From the IMG/VR virus record IMGVR_UViG_3300001199_000001, positions 69,404 through 133,403 of that record: DNA of 64,000 bases; one strand, written 5' to 3'. The notes beneath the pieces are model-generated. The model saw only the letters and a list, made by a program, of their open reading frames with translations, did not search any database and was not told the DNA's origin. Shown in pieces: positions 9,483 to 15,847 of this stretch. Made by a program: the position numbers and the translations under genes. How positions within the stretch are numbered: the first letter of the stretch is position 1; each line of letters opens with the position of its first letter. Source of the stretch: a virus. Lineage: Duplodnaviria; Heunggongvirae; Uroviricota; Caudoviricetes.

Positions 9483-10145
9483 ATGACGTTCGTTGAAATC
9501 AGAGCCGCTGAGGGCGGCGAGGACTCCAAGCTTCTAATCAGCGTTCTGGCGGCGGCGTATCGTCGTCGCGCGAGTAACTACGGCTGAAAGGTTGAAGAGA
9601 CGAGGCGCCACGACGGGCTTCTCGTGCTCAAGATCGCCGCTCCTATCGACAAATGGCGACAGGAAGCTGGCGGACATCGCTTTCAACGGGTACCCCCGAC
9701 GGAACGGCGCGGACGAGTCCACACGAGCACCGTGACTGTCGCCGTCGTCGATCACGCTGCGTTCGAGAGCGTCTTTAACGAAGACGACGTAAAGATTGAA
9801 TGGTTTTCTGGCACGGGTAAGGGTGGGCAGAACAGGAATAAGGTCCAAGCGTCTTGCCGCGCACTACACGTCCCGACTGGCATTATCGCCAAGGCTGAAA
9901 CCCGTTCACGCACCTCCAGTCAAAATCTTGCCGTCGCTGAACTAAAGCGGCGTGTCGACGAAGCCGCTCAAGGTTTGGATGCGTCTCGAAAAGCCACCGA
10001 GCGTAAGCAGCAAGTCGGATCAGGCATGCGGGGCGATAAAATCCGTACGTACCGGTTGCAGGACGACACTGTCGTGGATCATCGGACCGAGAAGCGCGCA
10101 ACTTGGAAGCAGATCGAGCGTGGTGAGTTTGCACTTTTACACTAA
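9483..10145 (+). CDS. Class I peptide chain release factor homologue (RF1-like, no domain 1) with in-frame TGA at 9585-9587
   Basis: VEIRAAEGGEDS...YG*KVE, GGHRFQRVPPTERRGRVHTS, GTGKGGQNRNK, RGDKIRTY; all in one frame from ATG 9483. Confidence 0.88.
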
Positions 10146-10592: not shown

Positions 10593-10667
10593 GGCCCGGT
10601 CGTCTAATAGTGAGGATACCTGACTTTCAATCAGGAGACAGGGGGGCAGTACCCCTTCGGGCTTCCA
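10593..10667 (+). tRNA. trnE: tRNA-Glu(TTC), atypical T-loop GGCAGTA
   Basis: Loop CT-TTC-AA, CCA end. Confidence 0.88.
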
Positions 10668-10669
10668 TC

Positions 10670-10743
10670 GCTCAATTCGTCTATCAGTAGGATACTAGAC
10701 TGTCGATCTAGAGAGGCGGGGGCAGCACCCGCATTGAGCGCCA
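10670..10743 (+). tRNA. trnD: tRNA-Asp(GTC), atypical T-loop GGCAGCA
   Basis: Loop CT-GTC-GA, G73, CCA end. Confidence 0.9.
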
Positions 10744-11869: not shown

Positions 11870-11898
11870 TTGACACAGCGAACATCCGCTGTTAATGT
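11870..11898 (+). promoter_or_regulatory. Promoter of module B (Pro/Met/Thr/Lys tRNAs)
   Basis: TTGACA-N17-TAATGT. Confidence 0.8.
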
Positions 11899-12513: not shown

Positions 12514-12819
12514 GTGAGACTTTATCTCGACGATATCCGCACACCGCCTCCGGGCGAGTGGGTTATCTGTCGAGATGTTGAACAGGCGCAGGCGATCTGC
12601 GCCGCTCACGGTTGCCCAGCCTTTATCTCCTTCGACCACGACTTGGGCGAGGACGTAGCCACCGGTTACGATTTCGCCCACTGGCTGGTCGACAACGACC
12701 TAGACACAGGCGGAGCCTTCATCCCGGAAGGCTTCACCTACAATGTACATTCGGCCAACCCGGTCGGCGCCGCGAACATCACGGGCCTGCTGGACGGTTA
12801 TCTGGAGTTTCGGCGATGA
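12514..12819 (+). CDS. Cyclic-phosphate-processing receiver-like domain protein
   Basis: LYLDD.R.PP...ISFDHDLG...TGYD...VHSANPVG motif set. Confidence 0.8.
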   Translation: MRLYLDDIRTPPPGEWVICRDVEQAQAICAAHGCPAFISFDHDLGEDVATGYDFAHWLVDNDLDTGGAFIPEGFTYNVHSANPVGAANITGLLDGYLEFRR

Positions 12820-12929: not shown

Positions 12930-13007
12930 CAGGGTGTAGCTCAGCATGGCGAGAGCGTTACGTCGGGAACGTAAAGGTCGCTGGTTCAAGTCCAGTCACC
13001 CTGACCA
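12930..13007 (+). tRNA. trnP: tRNA-Pro(GGG)
   Basis: Loop TC-GGG-AA, CCA. Confidence 0.93.
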
Positions 13008-13016
13008 AAGTTTTAT

Positions 13017-13092
13017 TGTGGTATAGCTCAGTTGGTAGAGCGTCGGGCTCATATTCCGGATGTCGCTGGTTCGATCCCAGCTACCACAACCA
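13017..13092 (+). tRNA. trnM: tRNA-Met(CAT); could be Ile2 if lysidine-modified
   Basis: Loop CT-CAT-AT, CCA. Confidence 0.85.
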
Positions 13093-13096
13093 ATTT

Positions 13097-13168
13097 GCCG
13101 ATGCCGTGTGGTACGGGCCTGTCCTTGGTATGGACGGTGGCAGGGTTCGATTCCCTGTTTCGGCTCCA
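13097..13168 (+). tRNA. trnT: tRNA-Thr(GGT), compact D-arm
   Basis: Loop TT-GGT-AT, canonical T-arm, CCA. Confidence 0.8.
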
Positions 13169-13174
13169 GTTTAT

Positions 13175-13248
13175 GCCGCTATAGCTCAGTGGTAGAGCAG
13201 CGCCTTCGTAACGCGAAGATCGGAGTTCGATTCCCCGTAGCGGCACCA
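13175..13248 (+). tRNA. trnT: tRNA-Thr(CGT)
   Basis: thrW-like sequence, loop TT-CGT-AA, CCA. Confidence 0.9.
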
Positions 13249-13306
13249 TTATAATTGTAAGCTTCGTGATGCCTTATCACCGGATAATGTAATACGAAGT
13301 TTACAC

Positions 13307-13382
13307 GCCGGATTAGCTCAGTTGGTAGAGCGGCAGTTTTGTAAACTGATGGTCAGGGGTTCGAATCCTCTATCCGGCACCA
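13307..13382 (+). tRNA. trnT: tRNA-Thr(TGT)
   Basis: Loop TT-TGT-AA, CCA. Confidence 0.95.
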
Positions 13383-13386
13383 GTTT

Positions 13387-13473
13387 GGATCAGTCACCTC
13401 AGCGGCGAGAGGCACGGGCTCTTAATCCGTCAGCGTAAGCTCATCGTGGGTTCGAGTCCCACCTGATCCTCCA
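13387..13473 (+). tRNA. trnK: tRNA with CTT (Lys) anticodon and a long variable arm
   Basis: Loop CT-CTT-AA, V-arm AGC-GTAA-GCT, U73, CCA; 87 nt. Confidence 0.82.
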
Positions 13474-13475
13474 AA

Positions 13476-13503
13476 TTCCCGCCGACAGTTTAGTCGGCGG
13501 GAA
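13476..13503. terminator. Hairpin closing tRNA module B
   Basis: TTCCCGCCGAC/GTCGGCGGGAA; the U-tract is on the minus strand only. Confidence 0.6.
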
Positions 13504-13528
13504 AAATCGAATAATCTGTATTTTCTTG

Positions 13529-13557
13529 TTGACATACCCTTAAACACTTGATATAAA
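13529..13557 (+). promoter_or_regulatory. Promoter of module C (Leu tRNAs)
   Basis: TTGACA-N17-TATAAA. Confidence 0.85.
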
Positions 13558-13564
13558 CCTCCCC

Positions 13565-13651
13565 ATGTTCACGAACGCCCACACCTTATTGCTACTTAGC
13601 GACGCCTTCGCCGCGTCCTTGGTTGCGCGTGCGTTTGGCGTTAAACGGTAG
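13565..13651 (+). CDS. Leader peptide C, MFTNAHTLLLLSDAFAASLVARAFGVKR
   Basis: Four consecutive, different Leu codons TTA TTG CTA CTT upstream of five tRNA-Leu genes. Confidence 0.82.
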   Translation: MFTNAHTLLLLSDAFAASLVARAFGVKR

Positions 13652-13717
13652 TCCAGACTGCGCTTAGGCGTCTGAGACTATAAGTCCCAACATCTCTGTG
13701 CAGTCCCTTGCTTTCAA

Positions 13718-13797
13718 GGGTCCCGAGCTAACTCAGGGTGGCTTGGGCGCGGCCTTTAACCGCAGAGCAAGAAGTTCGACTCTTCCGGGACCCTCCA
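13718..13797 (+). tRNA. Degenerate tRNA with TTT (Lys) anticodon
   Basis: GGGTCCC/GGGACCC acceptor, loop CC-TTT-AA (C33), irregular D-arm, U73, CCA. Confidence 0.55.
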
Positions 13798-13816
13798 ATC
13801 TCAAGACCAAATCCAT

Positions 13817-13895
13817 CGTCGCCTAGCCCAACCATGGCAGAGGCAATACGTTGAGAGCGTATCCAGTACGAGTTCGAATCTCGTGGCGACGACCA
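13817..13895 (+). tRNA. trnL: tRNA-Leu(GAG), short variable loop
   Basis: Loop TT-GAG-AG, 5-nt V-loop, A73, CCA. Confidence 0.85.
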
Positions 13896-13896
13896 T

Positions 13897-13981
13897 GCGG
13901 ATGTGGCGGAATTGGTAGACGCCCTGGTTTTAGGTACCAGTATCGCAAGGTGTGGAGGTTCGAGTCCTCTCATCCGCACCA
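13897..13981 (+). tRNA. trnL: tRNA-Leu(TAG)
   Basis: Class II cloverleaf, loop TT-TAG-GT, CCA. Confidence 0.95.
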
Positions 13982-13990
13982 TTCATTCAC

Positions 13991-14065
13991 GGCCTCGGAA
14001 GTCAAAGAATCGAGACAGCCCGGTAAGGGAACTGAAGTCGGTGTAAGTCCGGCCCAAGGCCACCA
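13991..14065 (+). ncRNA. tRNA-like RNA (8-bp acceptor plus 5-bp T-stem, CCA end)
   Basis: GGCCTCGG/CCAAGGCC, T-arm GTCGG-TGTAAGT-CCGGC, irregular anticodon arm, ACCA end. Confidence 0.55.
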
Positions 14066-14073
14066 TGTTTTAT

Positions 14074-14151
14074 CGCTGGGTAGCCCAACTTGGTAGAGGC
14101 GACGCGCTCAGAATGCGTACAGTGAGAGTTCGAATCTCTCTCCAGCGACCA
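14074..14151 (+). tRNA. trnL: tRNA-Leu(CAG), short variable loop
   Basis: Loop CT-CAG-AA, 5-nt V-loop, A73, CCA. Confidence 0.85.
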
Positions 14152-14168
14152 ATCTTAAGGGGACTAAA

Positions 14169-14375
14169 ATGACTCTGAAGACCCACGTCACCGGAATGGT
14201 CACGTTCCAGTATTATCGCGACGGTAACCTCTGGTACAAGACGGATTCAGGTTTCAGCTTCCCCGTCCCGGTAGACGACACAGGATCAGCGACGTTCTCG
14301 GCGTTGGATAAGGCGCTGCTTTTCATGCGGTACATCCGTAAGCATATGGATGTCATCGCAGCGAAGGTAAATTGA
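14169..14375 (+). CDS. Conserved small phage protein
   Basis: F.YYR.G.LWY.T..GF.FPVP..D.G.A.F...DK...FMRYIRK pattern; GGGG RBS. Confidence 0.75.
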   Translation: MTLKTHVTGMVTFQYYRDGNLWYKTDSGFSFPVPVDDTGSATFSALDKALLFMRYIRKHMDVIAAKVN

Positions 14376-14379
14376 TCAC

Positions 14380-14462
14380 GCGGGTATGGCGGAATTGGTA
14401 GACGCGCTGGCTTCAAGTACCAGTGTTAATTCGTGCCGGTTCGAGTCCGGCTACCCGCACCA
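14380..14462 (+). tRNA. trnL: tRNA-Leu(CAA)
   Basis: Class II, loop TT-CAA-GT, CCA. Confidence 0.93.
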
Positions 14463-14468
14463 ACCTAT

Positions 14469-14545
14469 CCCCTGGTAGCCCAACTGGCAGAGGCAACGGA
14501 TTTAAGCTCCGTCAAGTCTGAGTTCGAATCTCAGGTAGGGGACCA
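14469..14545 (+). tRNA. trnL: tRNA-Leu(TAA), short variable loop
   Basis: Loop TT-TAA-GC, 5-nt V-loop, A73, CCA. Confidence 0.85.
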
Positions 14546-14554
14546 ATCATAAAT

Positions 14555-14588
14555 AAAGCCCCGGTGGACCCAACTCCGCCGGGGCTTT
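14555..14588. terminator. Bidirectional terminator
   Basis: AAAGCCCCGG/CCGGGGCTTT with A/T-rich flanks. Confidence 0.8.
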
Positions 14589-14594
14589 AAAATT

Positions 14595-14910
14595 GGAGAG
14601 GGGCGGAGGACTTTCGCCCGCCGCCCCTCATATGCCGTGTGTTGCTCCAAAATTCCACCTAGCAAATCTGAGATACATCTTCCCGTGAAGGTTAATGCAT
14701 CCGGCCTCCTACGCAGCCCAGTACGGGACCTTTCGGTTTCCGCCCGGCGTCTGTTTCGGCCTTACCGCCATCTCCCTATTTCTAAGGAGCGGCAGGTCCG
14801 GTAGAGCCATGTTCCTCGCCCGAAGCGTTAGGACCGGAGGGCTCCAAACCCGTTTGGTTCAGACAAATAGACCTTACCCAGCGACCCTGTTCGGGTCAAC
14901 GCTCTTTTGT
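14595..14910 (-). ncRNA. Candidate structured ncRNA on the minus strand
   Basis: GAAA tetraloop stems (14595-14628, 14725-14745) and a C(UUCG)G loop (14817-14827) read correctly only on the minus strand. Confidence 0.45.
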
Positions 14911-15070
14911 AGTTATCCACAGTTTCGAGAAACTGTGGACGGTTTCCAAAGCGGTCTTGACAGCGTGCGTGAGATTGACTAGGCGCGCGCATTTCTTGAC
15001 ACGAGTCACTTTAAGTGAGAGTAAAGAGGGCGGCTACCCGTTACGCGCCATTCCAACCCCCGAAGGCCCC

Positions 15071-15511
15071 ATGTATCTTTCTCCGCACTTCAGCTTGGCT
15101 GAGCTAACCGCCTCGAACACCGCAAAACGTCGCGGTTTCGACAACACCCCGTCGCCTTATGTGCTGGAGAACCTTCGCGTCACGGCCGAAGCTATGGAAG
15201 AAATCCGCGCCATTCTCGGAAAGGCGATCATTGTCACGTCCGGGTTCCGCAGCGCCATCGTCAATCAGCTTGTTGGCGGCTCTCAATCATCCGCCCACGT
15301 TCAGGGCTTTGCCGTCGACTTCATCAGTCCGGGATTTGGCACGCCCTTCGAGGTCGCCCGCGAGATCGCCAAGCACAAGGATGAACTGAAGTACGATCAG
15401 TTGATCCACGAGTATCGCGACTGGACGCATATCAGCTTCGATCCCCGCGCTCGGAAGATCGATAACTCGATCTTTACACCGGGCCGTTATCTGCTCGGTA
15501 TCTTGCCGTAA
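15071..15511 (+). CDS. Peptidase M15 family cell-wall hydrolase (endolysin-like)
   Basis: LSPHFSLAEL...VTSGFRS...S.H..G.AVD...DQLIHEY..WTHIS. Confidence 0.9.
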   Translation: MYLSPHFSLAELTASNTAKRRGFDNTPSPYVLENLRVTAEAMEEIRAILGKAIIVTSGFRSAIVNQLVGGSQSSAHVQGFAVDFISPGFGTPFEVAREIAKHKDELKYDQLIHEYRDWTHISFDPRARKIDNSIFTPGRYLLGILP

Positions 15512-15541
15512 CGAGTCACTTTATCCTAAGGACACCTGCAT

Positions 15542-15814
15542 ATGTTGCCTGCAATAAGACTCGGCGCGACGACCGTCGAAACCGTCACTGACGAGTCGGC
15601 GTCGTTCACCCAGTCGCGTCCGTGGACCCAAGTGATGGTCCGCGCCAACGTCGCCGTCTGCCTGAAGACTGGTTCGACAGCGACGGAAGACGACTTCTAT
15701 CTAAAGGAAGATACCTATCTCGCCGTTGAACTGACTGAGGGCGAGACGCTACACTATATCCTTGCTACCGGGGAATCCGACGGCGAGATCAGAATCACCA
15801 CAATCGCCTATTAA
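15542..15814 (+). CDS. Small beta-rich, probably virion protein
   Basis: GAGTCAC motif upstream, AAGG RBS. Confidence 0.6.
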   Translation: MLPAIRLGATTVETVTDESASFTQSRPWTQVMVRANVAVCLKTGSTATEDDFYLKEDTYLAVELTEGETLHYILATGESDGEIRITTIAY

Positions 15815-15818
15815 ATTG

Positions 15819-15847
15819 TTGACACAGCGGAAACGCTGTGTTAAAAC
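15819..15847 (+). promoter_or_regulatory. Promoter of module D (His/Ala/Ser tRNAs)
   Basis: TTGACA-N17-TAAAAC. Confidence 0.75.

What the first reader, a model, noticed from the sequence alone, without database searches (positions are those of the whole stretch)
13529..14545. Module C: four different Leu codons in a row control five tRNA-Leu genes
TTA TTG CTA CTT matches the anticodons TAA, CAA, TAG and GAG; CTG, the common codon in GC-rich hosts, is absent. A late AAA codon matches the degenerate TTT tRNA that is first in the block. There is no U-tract terminator. Instead there are competing hairpins (GACGCCT in the leader versus AGGCGTC at ~13666; CCCTTG/CAAGGG at 13705-13720 overlapping the first tRNA), so the mechanism may be Rho-dependent or act at tRNA folding.
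Basis: partly seen in the sequence, partly recalled or inferred. Interest (0 to 1): 0.85.

Follow-up and report, generated by a model that had tools for sequence, protein, structure and literature searches.

The report
Leucine leader before phage tRNA-Leu genes
A giant phiCbK-like phage puts a 28-codon mini-gene, holding one copy of each of its four rarest leucine codons, between a promoter and its five leucine tRNA genes; it is most likely a ribosome-speed sensor of leucine-tRNA supply, but unlike its sister modules it has no recognisable transcription stop, so how the signal is read out is unknown.

Summary
The core observation is real. A near-consensus promoter (13529-13557) sits 7 nt before a 28-codon ORF with no Shine-Dalgarno (13565-13651). 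Codons 8-11 are TTA TTG CTA CTT. This codon set occurs once in the 279-kb genome, and these are the phage's four rarest Leu codons. Five tRNA-Leu genes follow (GAG, TAG, CAG, CAA, TAA).

Two details fail. The "TTT tRNA" is only a weak tRNA-like fold of unclear anticodon. The proposed GACGCCT/AGGCGTC pairing is 9.4 kcal/mol worse than the best fold.

Context supports a sensor reading:
- Five other modules in this phage pair a leaderless mini-ORF with matching tRNAs.
- All phiCbK-like relatives carry one combined leader plus terminator before Pro-Thr-Lys-Leu-His-Ala-Ser tRNAs. This phage seems to have split it into modules B, C and D.
- Unrelated phage contigs show the same logic, some with Leu runs and clear terminators.
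- This scan has noted the same class on other phage DNA.

The mechanism in module C is unresolved. There is no U-tract terminator. Three mutually exclusive hairpins exist, one pairing the CUA codon with the UAG stop. Thermodynamics alone does not show a switch.

Verdict: probable new variant of leader-peptide control, applied to tRNA genes. Confidence 0.55.

The parts
13476..13503 (+). Strong hairpin without a U tract after tRNA-Lys(CTT). It marks the boundary between module B and module C.
   Evidence: 11-bp stem, -22.4 kcal/mol, z -5.7. It is followed by A-rich sequence, not U-rich.
13529..13557 (+). Sigma-70-type promoter: TTGACA, 17-nt spacer, TATAAA (11 of 12 consensus positions).
   Evidence: Modules A, B, D and E and about 30 ordinary genes of this genome have the same architecture. 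The consensus scan missed it only because the last base of the -10 hexamer is A.
13565..13651 (+). Leaderless 28-codon leader ORF, MFTNAHTLLLLSDAFAASLVARAFGVKR, ending in a TAG stop.
   Evidence: The ATG lies 7 nt after the -10 hexamer. The sequence just upstream is CCUCCCC, which is not a Shine-Dalgarno. No Pfam match.
13586..13597 (+). Sensor run TTA TTG CTA CTT: four different rare Leu codons, one per isoacceptor (TAA, CAA, TAG, GAG).
   Evidence: The set is unique in the genome. The four codons have synonymous-use shares of 0.04, 0.12, 0.10 and 0.19.
13591..13652 (+). Hairpin H1. Its 5' arm is the CUA-CUU codons and its 3' arm covers the UAG stop.
   Evidence: -27.1 kcal/mol. The base pair at the foot of the stem has probability 0.82.
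13648..13681 (+). Hairpin H2'. It shares bases with both H1 and H2, so it cannot coexist with either. It forms first during transcription.
   Evidence: -17.3 kcal/mol. It is the minimum-energy structure for transcripts ending at 13684-13702.
13656..13705 (+). Hairpin H2, followed by the tail CCUUGCUUUC. It is not a canonical terminator.
   Evidence: -21.2 kcal/mol with an 8-bp basal stem. It forms in the minimum-energy fold whether or not a stalled ribosome is masked out.
13706..13719 (+). Small hairpin H3 (CCUUG/CAAGG), touching the acceptor stem of the tRNA-like element.
13719..13797 (+). tRNA-like element with a 7-bp acceptor stem, a UUCGA T-loop and a 3' UCCA.
   Evidence: cloverleaf in the minimum-energy fold. 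(no Rfam tRNA hit at E<=10). (ARAGORN calls it only at -ps80). (z -0.31).
13817..13895 (+). tRNA-Leu(GAG), short class-I-like form.
   Evidence: Rfam tRNA model, 43.8 bits.
13897..13981 (+). tRNA-Leu(TAG), class II with a long variable arm.
   Evidence: 54.6 bits.
14074..14151 (+). tRNA-Leu(CAG), short form. Its cognate CTG codon is absent from the leader.
   Evidence: 50 bits.
14169..14375 (+). 68-aa protein gene with its own Shine-Dalgarno, embedded in the tRNA block.
   Evidence: PHROG 20427, unknown function. 172 homologues, some of them also inside tRNA arrays.
14380..14462 (+). tRNA-Leu(CAA), class II.
   Evidence: 52.7 bits.
14469..14545 (+). tRNA-Leu(TAA), short form.
   Evidence: 43.8 bits.
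14554..14589 (+). Strong terminator that closes module C.
   Evidence: 15-bp stem, -29.1 kcal/mol, z -7.4, with flanking A and U runs.

Best explanation
Module C (13529-14589) is a separate transcription unit of a new phiCbK-like (Dolichocephalovirinae) giant phage. In order it contains:
- a near-consensus sigma-70 promoter;
- a transcript that probably starts at or next to the A of the ATG, so the mRNA is leaderless;
- a 28-codon ORF;
- about 165 nt of structured RNA;
- five tRNA-Leu genes and one small protein gene;
- a strong terminator.

The ORF most likely acts as a ribosome-speed sensor for the minor Leu codons. Codons 2-7 are preferred codons. Codons 8-11 are the four rarest Leu codons, one for each of four isoacceptors.

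Proposed working:
- If these codons are decoded slowly, the ribosome stays on them. That covers the 5' arm of hairpin H1 and most of the 5' end of the RNA.
- The stop-codon segment is then free to stay in hairpin H2', the competitor of H2. More transcript reaches, or matures into, the tRNA-Leu genes.
- If decoding is fast, the ribosome leaves, H1 and H2 form, and output falls. This gives negative feedback on tRNA-Leu supply.

H2 has no U tract. The output step must therefore depend on a factor (Rho or NusG termination, or pausing) or on RNA processing.

Shown here: the sequence features, their uniqueness, the alternative folds, and the homologous and analogous leaders elsewhere.
Inferred: the transcription start site, translation of the ORF, stalling, and every step of the read-out.
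For: 1. The LLLL run with the set {TTA, TTG, CTA, CTT} is unique among 557,718 six-frame codon positions. It lies 220 nt before the first called tRNA-Leu, on the same strand. These are the phage's four rarest Leu codons.

2. The promoter-to-ATG geometry is that of about 35 promoters in this genome, most of which lead straight into genes of 57-642 aa. Leaderless translation is therefore normal for this phage.

3. Six modules in this window pair such a mini-ORF with tRNAs that read its codons. Of 720 leader-to-block assignments, the true one scores best.

4. All six relatives examined (phiCbK, Bajun, Colossus, CcrPW, CcrBL9, Gurke) carry one homologous leader rich in S, T, L, A, P, K and H. It precedes the syntenic Pro-Thr-Lys-Leu-His-Ala-Ser block. 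In phiCbK an annotated terminator follows it, and Bajun shows a hairpin with a U run.
- Each relative's three Leu isoacceptors have cognate codons in its leader.
- Only the CcrBL9 leader contains Trp, and only the CcrBL9 block contains tRNA-Trp.

5. Unrelated phage contigs show the same logic:
- L153: LLL = TTA CTA TTG, then a terminator, before tRNA-Leu TAA, CAA and TAG.
- L195: ...SLLLLSLLSWC, then a terminator, before Trp, six Leu, Cys and Ser tRNAs.
- L216 and L105 show matched leaders for other amino acids.

6. A permutation-controlled scan of 114 tRNA blocks found 6 matches at -log10 p >= 4, against 0.4 expected.

7. The leader RNA is more structured than shuffled sequence (z -2.65). It holds three mutually exclusive hairpins. 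Masking a stalled ribosome lowers the advantage of H2 over H2' from 6.8 to 3.7 kcal/mol.
Against: - No intrinsic terminator lies between the ORF and the tRNAs.
- In equilibrium folds H2 forms whether or not a stalled ribosome is masked, so no switch is demonstrated.
- No homologue of this leader was found, so neither conservation nor covariation can be tested.
- Over the whole ORF, only 22% of codons are read by its own block, against 33% read by block D.
- LLL runs in upstream ORFs are not significantly more frequent before Leu-tRNA blocks in a broad phage sample (14/153 against 19/353, p = 0.086).
- The five tRNAs read all six Leu codons, so a codon-anticodon 'match' was guaranteed.
- The peptide is fairly hydrophobic and could have a role of its own.
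Confidence: 0.55

Rival explanations
1. Coincidence. The short ORF behind the promoter is not functional, and its Leu run is a chance feature of a 5' leader that simply drives constitutive tRNA-Leu transcription.
For: - LLL runs occur in about 5% of ATG-started upstream ORFs before blocks that have no Leu tRNA.
- The genome holds 23 six-frame LLLL windows.
- No terminator and no demonstrable switch.
- No homologue was found.
Against: - The rare-codon set is unique in the genome and lies at the right place and on the right strand.
- All five other short ORFs in the same promoter context in this window match their tRNA blocks.
- The ancestral combined leader in relatives also carries Leu codons for each Leu isoacceptor.
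Confidence: 0.13
2. The ORF is translated but does not sense codons. Its ribosome may only protect the 5' end or shield the nascent RNA from Rho in an unconditional way. Alternatively the 28-aa hydrophobic peptide has its own function.
For: - Leaderless genes are the norm for this phage.
- The first 28-40 nt are C-rich, G-poor and unpaired.
- The peptide contains a hydrophobic stretch.
Against: - This does not explain why exactly the four rarest Leu codons are used once each (p = 0.002 under phage usage).
- It does not explain why leaders track tRNA content across modules and across phages.
- No protein family matches the peptide.
Confidence: 0.14
3. The read-out acts on tRNA folding or processing rather than on transcription. 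Leader RNA segments would compete with the first tRNA-like element, or expose or hide a cleavage site, depending on where the ribosome sits.
For: - H3 touches the acceptor stem of the tRNA-like element.
- GUCCC occurs three times (about 13682, 13701 and 13721) and could compete for the GGGAC 3' acceptor strand (read directly).
- Modules A and F also place a tRNA within about 30 nt of the leader stop, with no U tract.
Against: - The overlap of H3 with the acceptor stem is only 1-3 nt.
- The tRNA-like element is itself doubtful.
- The five real tRNA-Leu genes lie further downstream and fold independently.
Confidence: 0.1
4. Classical intrinsic-terminator attenuation through the reader's competing hairpins (GACGCCT in the leader against AGGCGTC at about 13666).
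For: The two 7-mers are perfectly complementary. Sister modules B, D and E have U-tract terminators after their leaders.
Against: Forcing that pairing costs 9.4 kcal/mol, and its probability is about 6e-6. No hairpin with a U tract lies anywhere between 13652 and 13816.
Confidence: 0.03

Closest known systems
leuL, the leader peptide of the enterobacterial leuABCD operon (from my own knowledge: 28 residues with four consecutive Leu codons, several of them the rare CUA)
   Same: A promoter-proximal ORF of 28 codons with four consecutive Leu codons, using rare Leu codons. The logic is the same: slow decoding of Leu codons signals a shortage.
   Different: - leuL has a Shine-Dalgarno and the 1:2 / 2:3 / 3:4 hairpin set with a U-tract terminator. 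It controls biosynthetic enzymes and reports leucine through charged tRNA.
- Here the mRNA is leaderless, the codons are four different ones (one per isoacceptor), the genes controlled are the tRNAs themselves, and no U-tract terminator exists.
- Rfam's leader models gave no hit.
Sister modules B, D and E of this phage, and the combined leader of phiCbK-like phages (phiCbK gp335, CcrBL9 gp552, both annotated as hypothetical proteins)
   Same: The same tRNA-array synteny. A short ORF whose residues and codons mirror the tRNAs behind it. In this phage, the same promoter type and a leaderless start.
   Different: - Those leaders are followed by GC hairpins with U tracts.
- They poll several amino acids at once.
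- Module C polls one amino acid at the level of isoacceptors and lacks the terminator.
- No sequence homology to module C's leader was detected.
Rho-dependent leader-peptide control (tnaC-tnaA of E. coli; mgtL-mgtA and mgtP-mgtCBR of Salmonella; from my own knowledge, and PMC3641672 as listed)
   Same: A short leader ORF whose ribosome position decides downstream transcription without an intrinsic terminator. In mgtL the sensed codons are those of one amino acid (Pro).
   Different: Rho dependence is untested here. The regulated genes are tRNAs, not mRNAs. The only clearly C-rich, unpaired stretches are the translated 5' end and 13780-13816.
pheM-pheST attenuator and T-box leaders (from my own knowledge)
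   Same: Both control a component of the translation apparatus in response to the state of the cognate tRNA.
   Different: - pheM controls a synthetase through a classical terminator.
- T-boxes bind uncharged tRNA directly and need no ribosome.
- Neither controls tRNA genes.
- E. coli pheV, checked here, has no leader ORF.

Membership tests
Ribosome-mediated leader-peptide transcription attenuator (trpL/leuL/hisL class) | A short ORF with a run of regulatory codons, promoter-proximal and on the same strand as the regulated genes | tested here: met
   ORF 13565-13651 with LLLL at codons 8-11, 7 nt after the -10 hexamer and upstream of five tRNA-Leu genes.
Ribosome-mediated leader-peptide transcription attenuator (trpL/leuL/hisL class) | An intrinsic terminator (GC-rich hairpin followed by a U tract) between the leader ORF and the regulated genes | tested here: not met
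   None in 13652-13816. H2 is followed by CCUUGCUUUC.
Ribosome-mediated leader-peptide transcription attenuator (trpL/leuL/hisL class) | Mutually exclusive RNA structures whose choice depends on ribosome position | tested here: inconclusive
   H1, H2' and H2 are mutually exclusive, and H1's 5' arm lies in the Leu codons. However, the equilibrium fold keeps H2 with or without a masked ribosome.
Ribosome-mediated leader-peptide transcription attenuator (trpL/leuL/hisL class) | The leader ORF is translated, and output responds to supply of the cognate aminoacyl-tRNA | not testable with these tools
   Only the source DNA metagenome holds this sequence.
Ribosome-mediated leader-peptide transcription attenuator (trpL/leuL/hisL class) | The ORF and its structures are conserved in relatives | tested here: not met
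   No homologue of this leader was found. Relatives have a different, combined leader.
Rho-dependent leader-peptide attenuators (tnaC, mgtL type) | A C-rich, G-poor, unstructured Rho-loading site whose access depends on the ribosome or on refolding | tested here: inconclusive
   C-rich, G-poor stretches lie at 13560-13600 (the translated, unpaired region) and at 13780-13816. The stretch 13682-13705 is single-stranded only in the H2' state.
Rho-dependent leader-peptide attenuators (tnaC, mgtL type) | Termination requires Rho (bicyclomycin-sensitive) | not testable with these tools
   This needs an experiment.
Codon-matched leader/tRNA modules of phages (the class seen in this window, in relatives and in other contigs) | Leader codons are those read by the tRNAs of the block behind it and not by other blocks | tested here: met
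   The run of four Leu codons sits before the only Leu block. The true leader-to-block assignment is the best of 720. For module C alone the whole-ORF fraction is weak (22%).
   No ARAGORN call at default settings. No Rfam tRNA hit at E<=10. At -ps80 ARAGORN gives anticodon CGG with three G-U pairs in the stem. z -0.31.

The most novel reading that the evidence does not exclude
Module C is a terminator-less tRNA-supply sensor that resolves individual isoacceptors. Each of four rare Leu codons would poll one phage tRNA-Leu species. The ribosome's dwell time on them would be converted into tRNA-Leu output by refolding of the stop-codon segment (H1 against H2' against H2), acting through Rho, pausing or processing rather than through an intrinsic terminator. 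The phage could then top up, or replace after host anticodon-nuclease attack, exactly those Leu isoacceptors that a GC-rich host lacks. The module would have arisen when an ancestral multi-amino-acid leader split into three specialised ones (B, C, D).
Probability: 0.3. Interest if true: 0.85.

Novelty: new variant of a known kind. Interest (0 to 1): 0.75.

Why it matters
Phage tRNA genes are usually treated as passively expressed helpers for codon usage or against defence. A leader peptide that measures how fast specific codons are read and feeds back on the genes for those very tRNAs would be a new use of attenuation logic: homeostasis of the decoding machinery itself.

I found no published description of it.

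Module C is the sharpest single-amino-acid case, with one rare codon per isoacceptor. It is also the odd one, because it lacks a terminator. It is therefore the module most likely to reveal a second read-out mechanism.

phiCbK, a laboratory phage of Caulobacter, carries the homologous combined leader (gp335). The idea is therefore directly testable in a model system.

Tried and rejected
- Close relatives of module C were sought in several ways, without success.
  - blastn of 13000-15600 against 50,697 phage records found only tRNA matches.
  - Protein-anchored scans of IMG/VR with the 68-aa ORF and with the endolysin found no relatives.
  - A promoter-plus-ATG pattern in IMG/VR gave 10 unrelated leaderless genes.
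  - A pattern of the tRNA-Lys 3' end followed by a promoter found nothing in metagenomes.
  - A degenerate HTLLLLSDAF pattern in metagenomes gave 15 chance hits, because YTN also covers Phe codons.
  - blastn-short of the leader and the tRNA-like elements against six relatives found nothing.
- Expression: no RNA holder is listed for this sequence. Only the source groundwater DNA metagenome holds it.
- A crude whole-ORF composition screen of 455 tRNA blocks showed no excess over permuted controls (6 against 6.1). The windowed statistic with a local background did show an excess.
- LLL runs upstream of Leu blocks are not significantly enriched (p = 0.086).
- RNAduplex between the leader and downstream RNA was not better than with shuffled sequence.
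- My recollection that E. coli pheV has a leader peptide was checked and is wrong for K-12.
- Rfam found no known leader, riboswitch or sRNA family in 13480-14160.
Full report
WHAT IS THERE

The window comes from a 278,859-bp viral record, 56% G+C, rated complete. Its tail-tube protein is 62-66% identical to those of all phiCbK-like phages of Caulobacter and Brevundimonas (Dolichocephalovirinae). It is therefore a new lineage of that group.

Between 7.2 and 20.7 kb the window carries 39 ARAGORN tRNAs. Only Rfam sees two more, Glu at 10593 and Asp at 10670. Reading the sequence suggests at least one further tRNA that neither tool found, a Tyr-GTA-like element at about 19224-19307.

The finding concerns the stretch after tRNA-Lys(CTT). 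Its parts, in order:
- a strong hairpin without a U tract (13476-13503);
- TTGACA, 17 nt, TATAAA (13529-13557);
- 7 nt (CCTCCCC, not a Shine-Dalgarno);
- an ATG opening the 28-codon ORF MFTNAHTLLLLSDAFAASLVARAFGVKR (13565-13651).

Codons 8-11 are TTA TTG CTA CTT. Downstream lie tRNA-Leu GAG, TAG, CAG, CAA and TAA, with a 68-aa protein gene between the third and fourth. A very stable terminator closes the unit (14554-14589, z -7.4).

IS IT MORE THAN CHANCE?

- In all six frames of the genome there are 23 LLLL windows. Exactly one uses the set {TTA, TTG, CTA, CTT}, and it is this one.
- These are the four rarest Leu codons of the phage's own long ORFs (shares 0.04, 0.12, 0.10, 0.19). CTC and CTG (0.26, 0.29) are absent from the leader.
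- Four Leu codons drawn at the phage's usage form that set with probability 0.002.
- Codons 2-7 are preferred codons.

Three caveats apply:
- The five tRNAs read all six Leu codons, so a 'match' was certain. The information lies in distinctness, rarity and place.
- Over the whole ORF only 6 of 27 codons belong to the module's own block.
- In a broad sample of phage tRNA regions, LLL runs occur in about 5% of upstream ORFs even without a Leu tRNA behind them. The excess before Leu blocks is not significant (p = 0.086).

Taken alone, module C is suggestive (p roughly 0.0005-0.01), not conclusive.

WHAT DOES NOT HOLD

The 'degenerate TTT tRNA':
- Position 13719-13797 has a 7-bp acceptor stem, a UUCGA loop and a 3' UCCA, and it can fold as a cloverleaf.
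- ARAGORN at default settings and Rfam's tRNA model (E<=10) do not call it.
- At a relaxed threshold ARAGORN assigns anticodon CGG on a weak stem.
- The fold is no better than shuffled sequence.
- The AAA-codon argument therefore has no support.

The 'competing hairpins':
- GACGCCU and AGGCGUC are complementary. Forcing them to pair costs 9.4 kcal/mol, and the pair has equilibrium probability about 6e-6.

CONTEXT THAT MAKES THE SENSOR READING LIKELY

1. Promoter type. About 35 promoters of the form TTGAC-N16-18-TAnnnn-N6-9-ATG occur in the genome, and most open real genes of 57-642 aa. Leaderless mRNAs are therefore this phage's normal early design, and an ATG at the transcript start is a credible start codon.

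2. Sister modules. Six short ORFs in that context precede tRNA blocks:
   - A: Glu, Asp.
   - B: Pro x3, Met, Thr x3, Lys.
   - C: Leu x5.
   - D: His, Ala x3, Ser x4.
   - E: Tyr-like, Phe, Val, Ile, Gln, Asn, Arg, Cys.
   - F: Ile-TAT, on the minus strand.

   Scoring each leader against each block, the true assignment is the best of 720 permutations. B, D and E are followed by hairpins with U tracts.

3. Relatives. phiCbK, Bajun, Colossus, CcrPW, CcrBL9 and Gurke keep the same block order.
   - They carry one homologous leader before the whole Pro-Thr-Lys-Leu-(His-Ala)-Ser block. An example is phiCbK gp335, MFALSHNSLSTKAASPASLSLAPLATATKPSTKPTTSASHSTDHL.
   - phiCbK has an annotated terminator after it, and Bajun has a hairpin with a U run.
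   - These leaders are almost free of residues served by other blocks.
   - Each contains codons for all three of its Leu isoacceptors.
   - Only the CcrBL9 leader has a Trp, and only the CcrBL9 block has tRNA-Trp.
   - The present phage appears to have split that unit into B, C and D. Each has its own promoter and a leader holding only its own share of the codons.

4. Unrelated contigs show the same logic:
   - L153: ...A-LLL-SLSYL with LLL = TTA CTA TTG, then a terminator, then tRNA-Leu TAA, Tyr, Ser, Leu CAA, Leu TAG.
   - L195: CLTSLLLLSLLSWC, then a terminator, then Trp, six Leu, Cys, Ser.
   - L216: QNHQWDNCEQNH, then a terminator, then Trp, Cys, Glu, Gln, His, Asn, Asp.
   - L105: QRRQQRDRRD behind a TTGACA promoter, then Gln x3, Arg, Arg, Asp.

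   A windowed statistic with local background and permuted controls was run on 114 multi-tRNA blocks, excluding this phage and its relatives. It gave 6 matches at -log10 p >= 4 against 0.4 expected (maximum 2 in 30 permutations).

5. Earlier notes of this scan describe the same class on several other phage genomes. I treated them as leads only.

MECHANISM IN MODULE C

The leader RNA (13563-13720) folds better than shuffled sequence (z -2.65). Its hairpins are:
- H1 (13591-13652, -27.1 kcal/mol). It pairs G-CUA-CU of the Leu run with GG-UAG-U at the stop codon.
- H2 (13656-13705, -21.2).
- H3 (13706-13719).
- H2' (13648-13681, -17.3). It uses the stop-codon segment and the 5' base of H2, so it excludes both H1's base and H2.

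H2' is the minimum-energy form while the transcript ends between 13684 and 13702. This is the 1:2 / 2:3 / 3:4 topology of classical attenuators, with the regulatory codons in segment 1.

Masking a ribosome stalled on codons 8-11 removes H1. It lowers the gain from switching H2' to H2 from 6.8 to 3.7 kcal/mol. H2 still wins at equilibrium, and H2 is followed by CCUUGCUUUC, not a U tract.

A switch is therefore possible kinetically but is not demonstrated. Its output cannot be ordinary intrinsic termination. The candidates are:
- Rho- or NusG-dependent termination. C-rich, G-poor unpaired stretches lie at the translated 5' end and at 13780-13816.
- Pausing.
- Processing or folding of the precursor.

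Modules A and F likewise lack U tracts. The B/C boundary hairpin also lacks one, so non-canonical stops may be common in this phage.

COMPARISON AND NOVELTY

The closest textbook case is leuL (from my own knowledge: 28 residues, four consecutive Leu codons). Module C shares the ORF design. It fails the terminator criterion, so I do not file it as a member of the classical attenuator family. It plausibly works like one.

Literature searches found nothing on leader peptides controlling tRNA genes, in phages or in cells. The phiCbK genome paper (PMC3556154) mentions neither attenuation nor leaders. E. coli pheV, which I suspected as a precedent, has no leader ORF.

VERDICT

- The sensor interpretation is likely (about 0.55-0.7), mainly because of context.
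- The read-out mechanism is open.

Noticed in passing
window 11593, 14996, 22567, 24660, 48411, 61996 (+ strand): A second recurring motif: TTGAC followed by the palindrome GAGTCACTTTAAGTGA (TCACTT-T-AAGTGA). It looks like an operator or a second promoter class, distinct from the leaderless TTGACA-N17-TAnnnn-ATG promoters.
   Followed up: no
window 11870-11898 and 15819-15847; 10461, 13529, 18756: The promoters of modules B and D share an inverted repeat, ACAGCG-N5/6-CGCTGT, inside the spacer. This could be a repressor site. Modules A, C and E share GTTGACATACC. The leader modules thus fall into two families of paralogous promoters.
   Followed up: no
window 13817-13895, 14074-14151, 14469-14545: Three of the five tRNA-Leu genes (GAG, CAG, TAA) are 75-79-nt paralogues. 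They lack the long variable arm but keep a Leu-type D arm (TAGCCCAAC..GG.AGAGGC) and the discriminator base A73. That D-arm pattern occurs in more than 119 IMG/VR contigs. Whether they are charged with leucine is untested.
   Followed up: partly
window 13387-13473; L098 8140-8324: tRNA-Lys(CTT) is 87 nt long with a long variable arm, which is unusual for tRNA-Lys. phiCbK has the homologous Lys(CTT), plus a Lys(TTT) of the same long type.
   Followed up: no
window 13586-13597 versus 13817-14545: The order of the four Leu codons (TTA, TTG, CTA, CTT) is the exact reverse of the order of their cognate tRNA genes (GAG, TAG, [CAG], CAA, TAA). This may be coincidence (1 in 24).
   Followed up: no
window 14169-14375; L105 4313-4543; L106 254-487; L108 8001-8249: The 68-aa protein (PHROG 20427, unknown function, 172 homologues) again sits inside or next to tRNA arrays in other phage contigs. 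This suggests a tRNA-related role.
   Followed up: partly
window 9624-10145 and 12514-12819: The tRNA region also encodes an RF-1/PCRF-domain protein that looks like a truncated release factor. Between two tRNA-Pro genes it encodes a cREC_REC protein ('cyclic-phosphate processing receiver').
   Followed up: no
window 10593-10664, 10670-10740, about 19224-19307, 13988-14070: Several tRNAs or tRNA-like elements escape one or both detectors. Glu-TTC and Asp-GTC are found only by Rfam. A Tyr-GTA-like element is seen only by eye. A second tRNA-like spacer lies between Leu-TAG and Leu-CAG, and its fold is no more stable than shuffled sequence (z -0.44).
   Followed up: partly
L098 7541-7678 (phiCbK gp335); L101 7252-7371 (CcrBL9 gp552): Small CDSs annotated as 'hypothetical protein' in published Caulobacter phage genomes are the combined leader peptides in front of the Pro-to-Ser tRNA block. 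In phiCbK an annotated rho-independent terminator follows.
   Followed up: yes
L105 3465-3603; L216 (- strand) 348 and 2170; L195 (- strand) 2209; L153 2583: Unrelated uncultured phage contigs carry leader ORFs spelled in the residues of the tRNAs behind them. Most have clear U-tract terminators, and some sit behind TTGAC-type promoters with no Shine-Dalgarno.
   Followed up: partly
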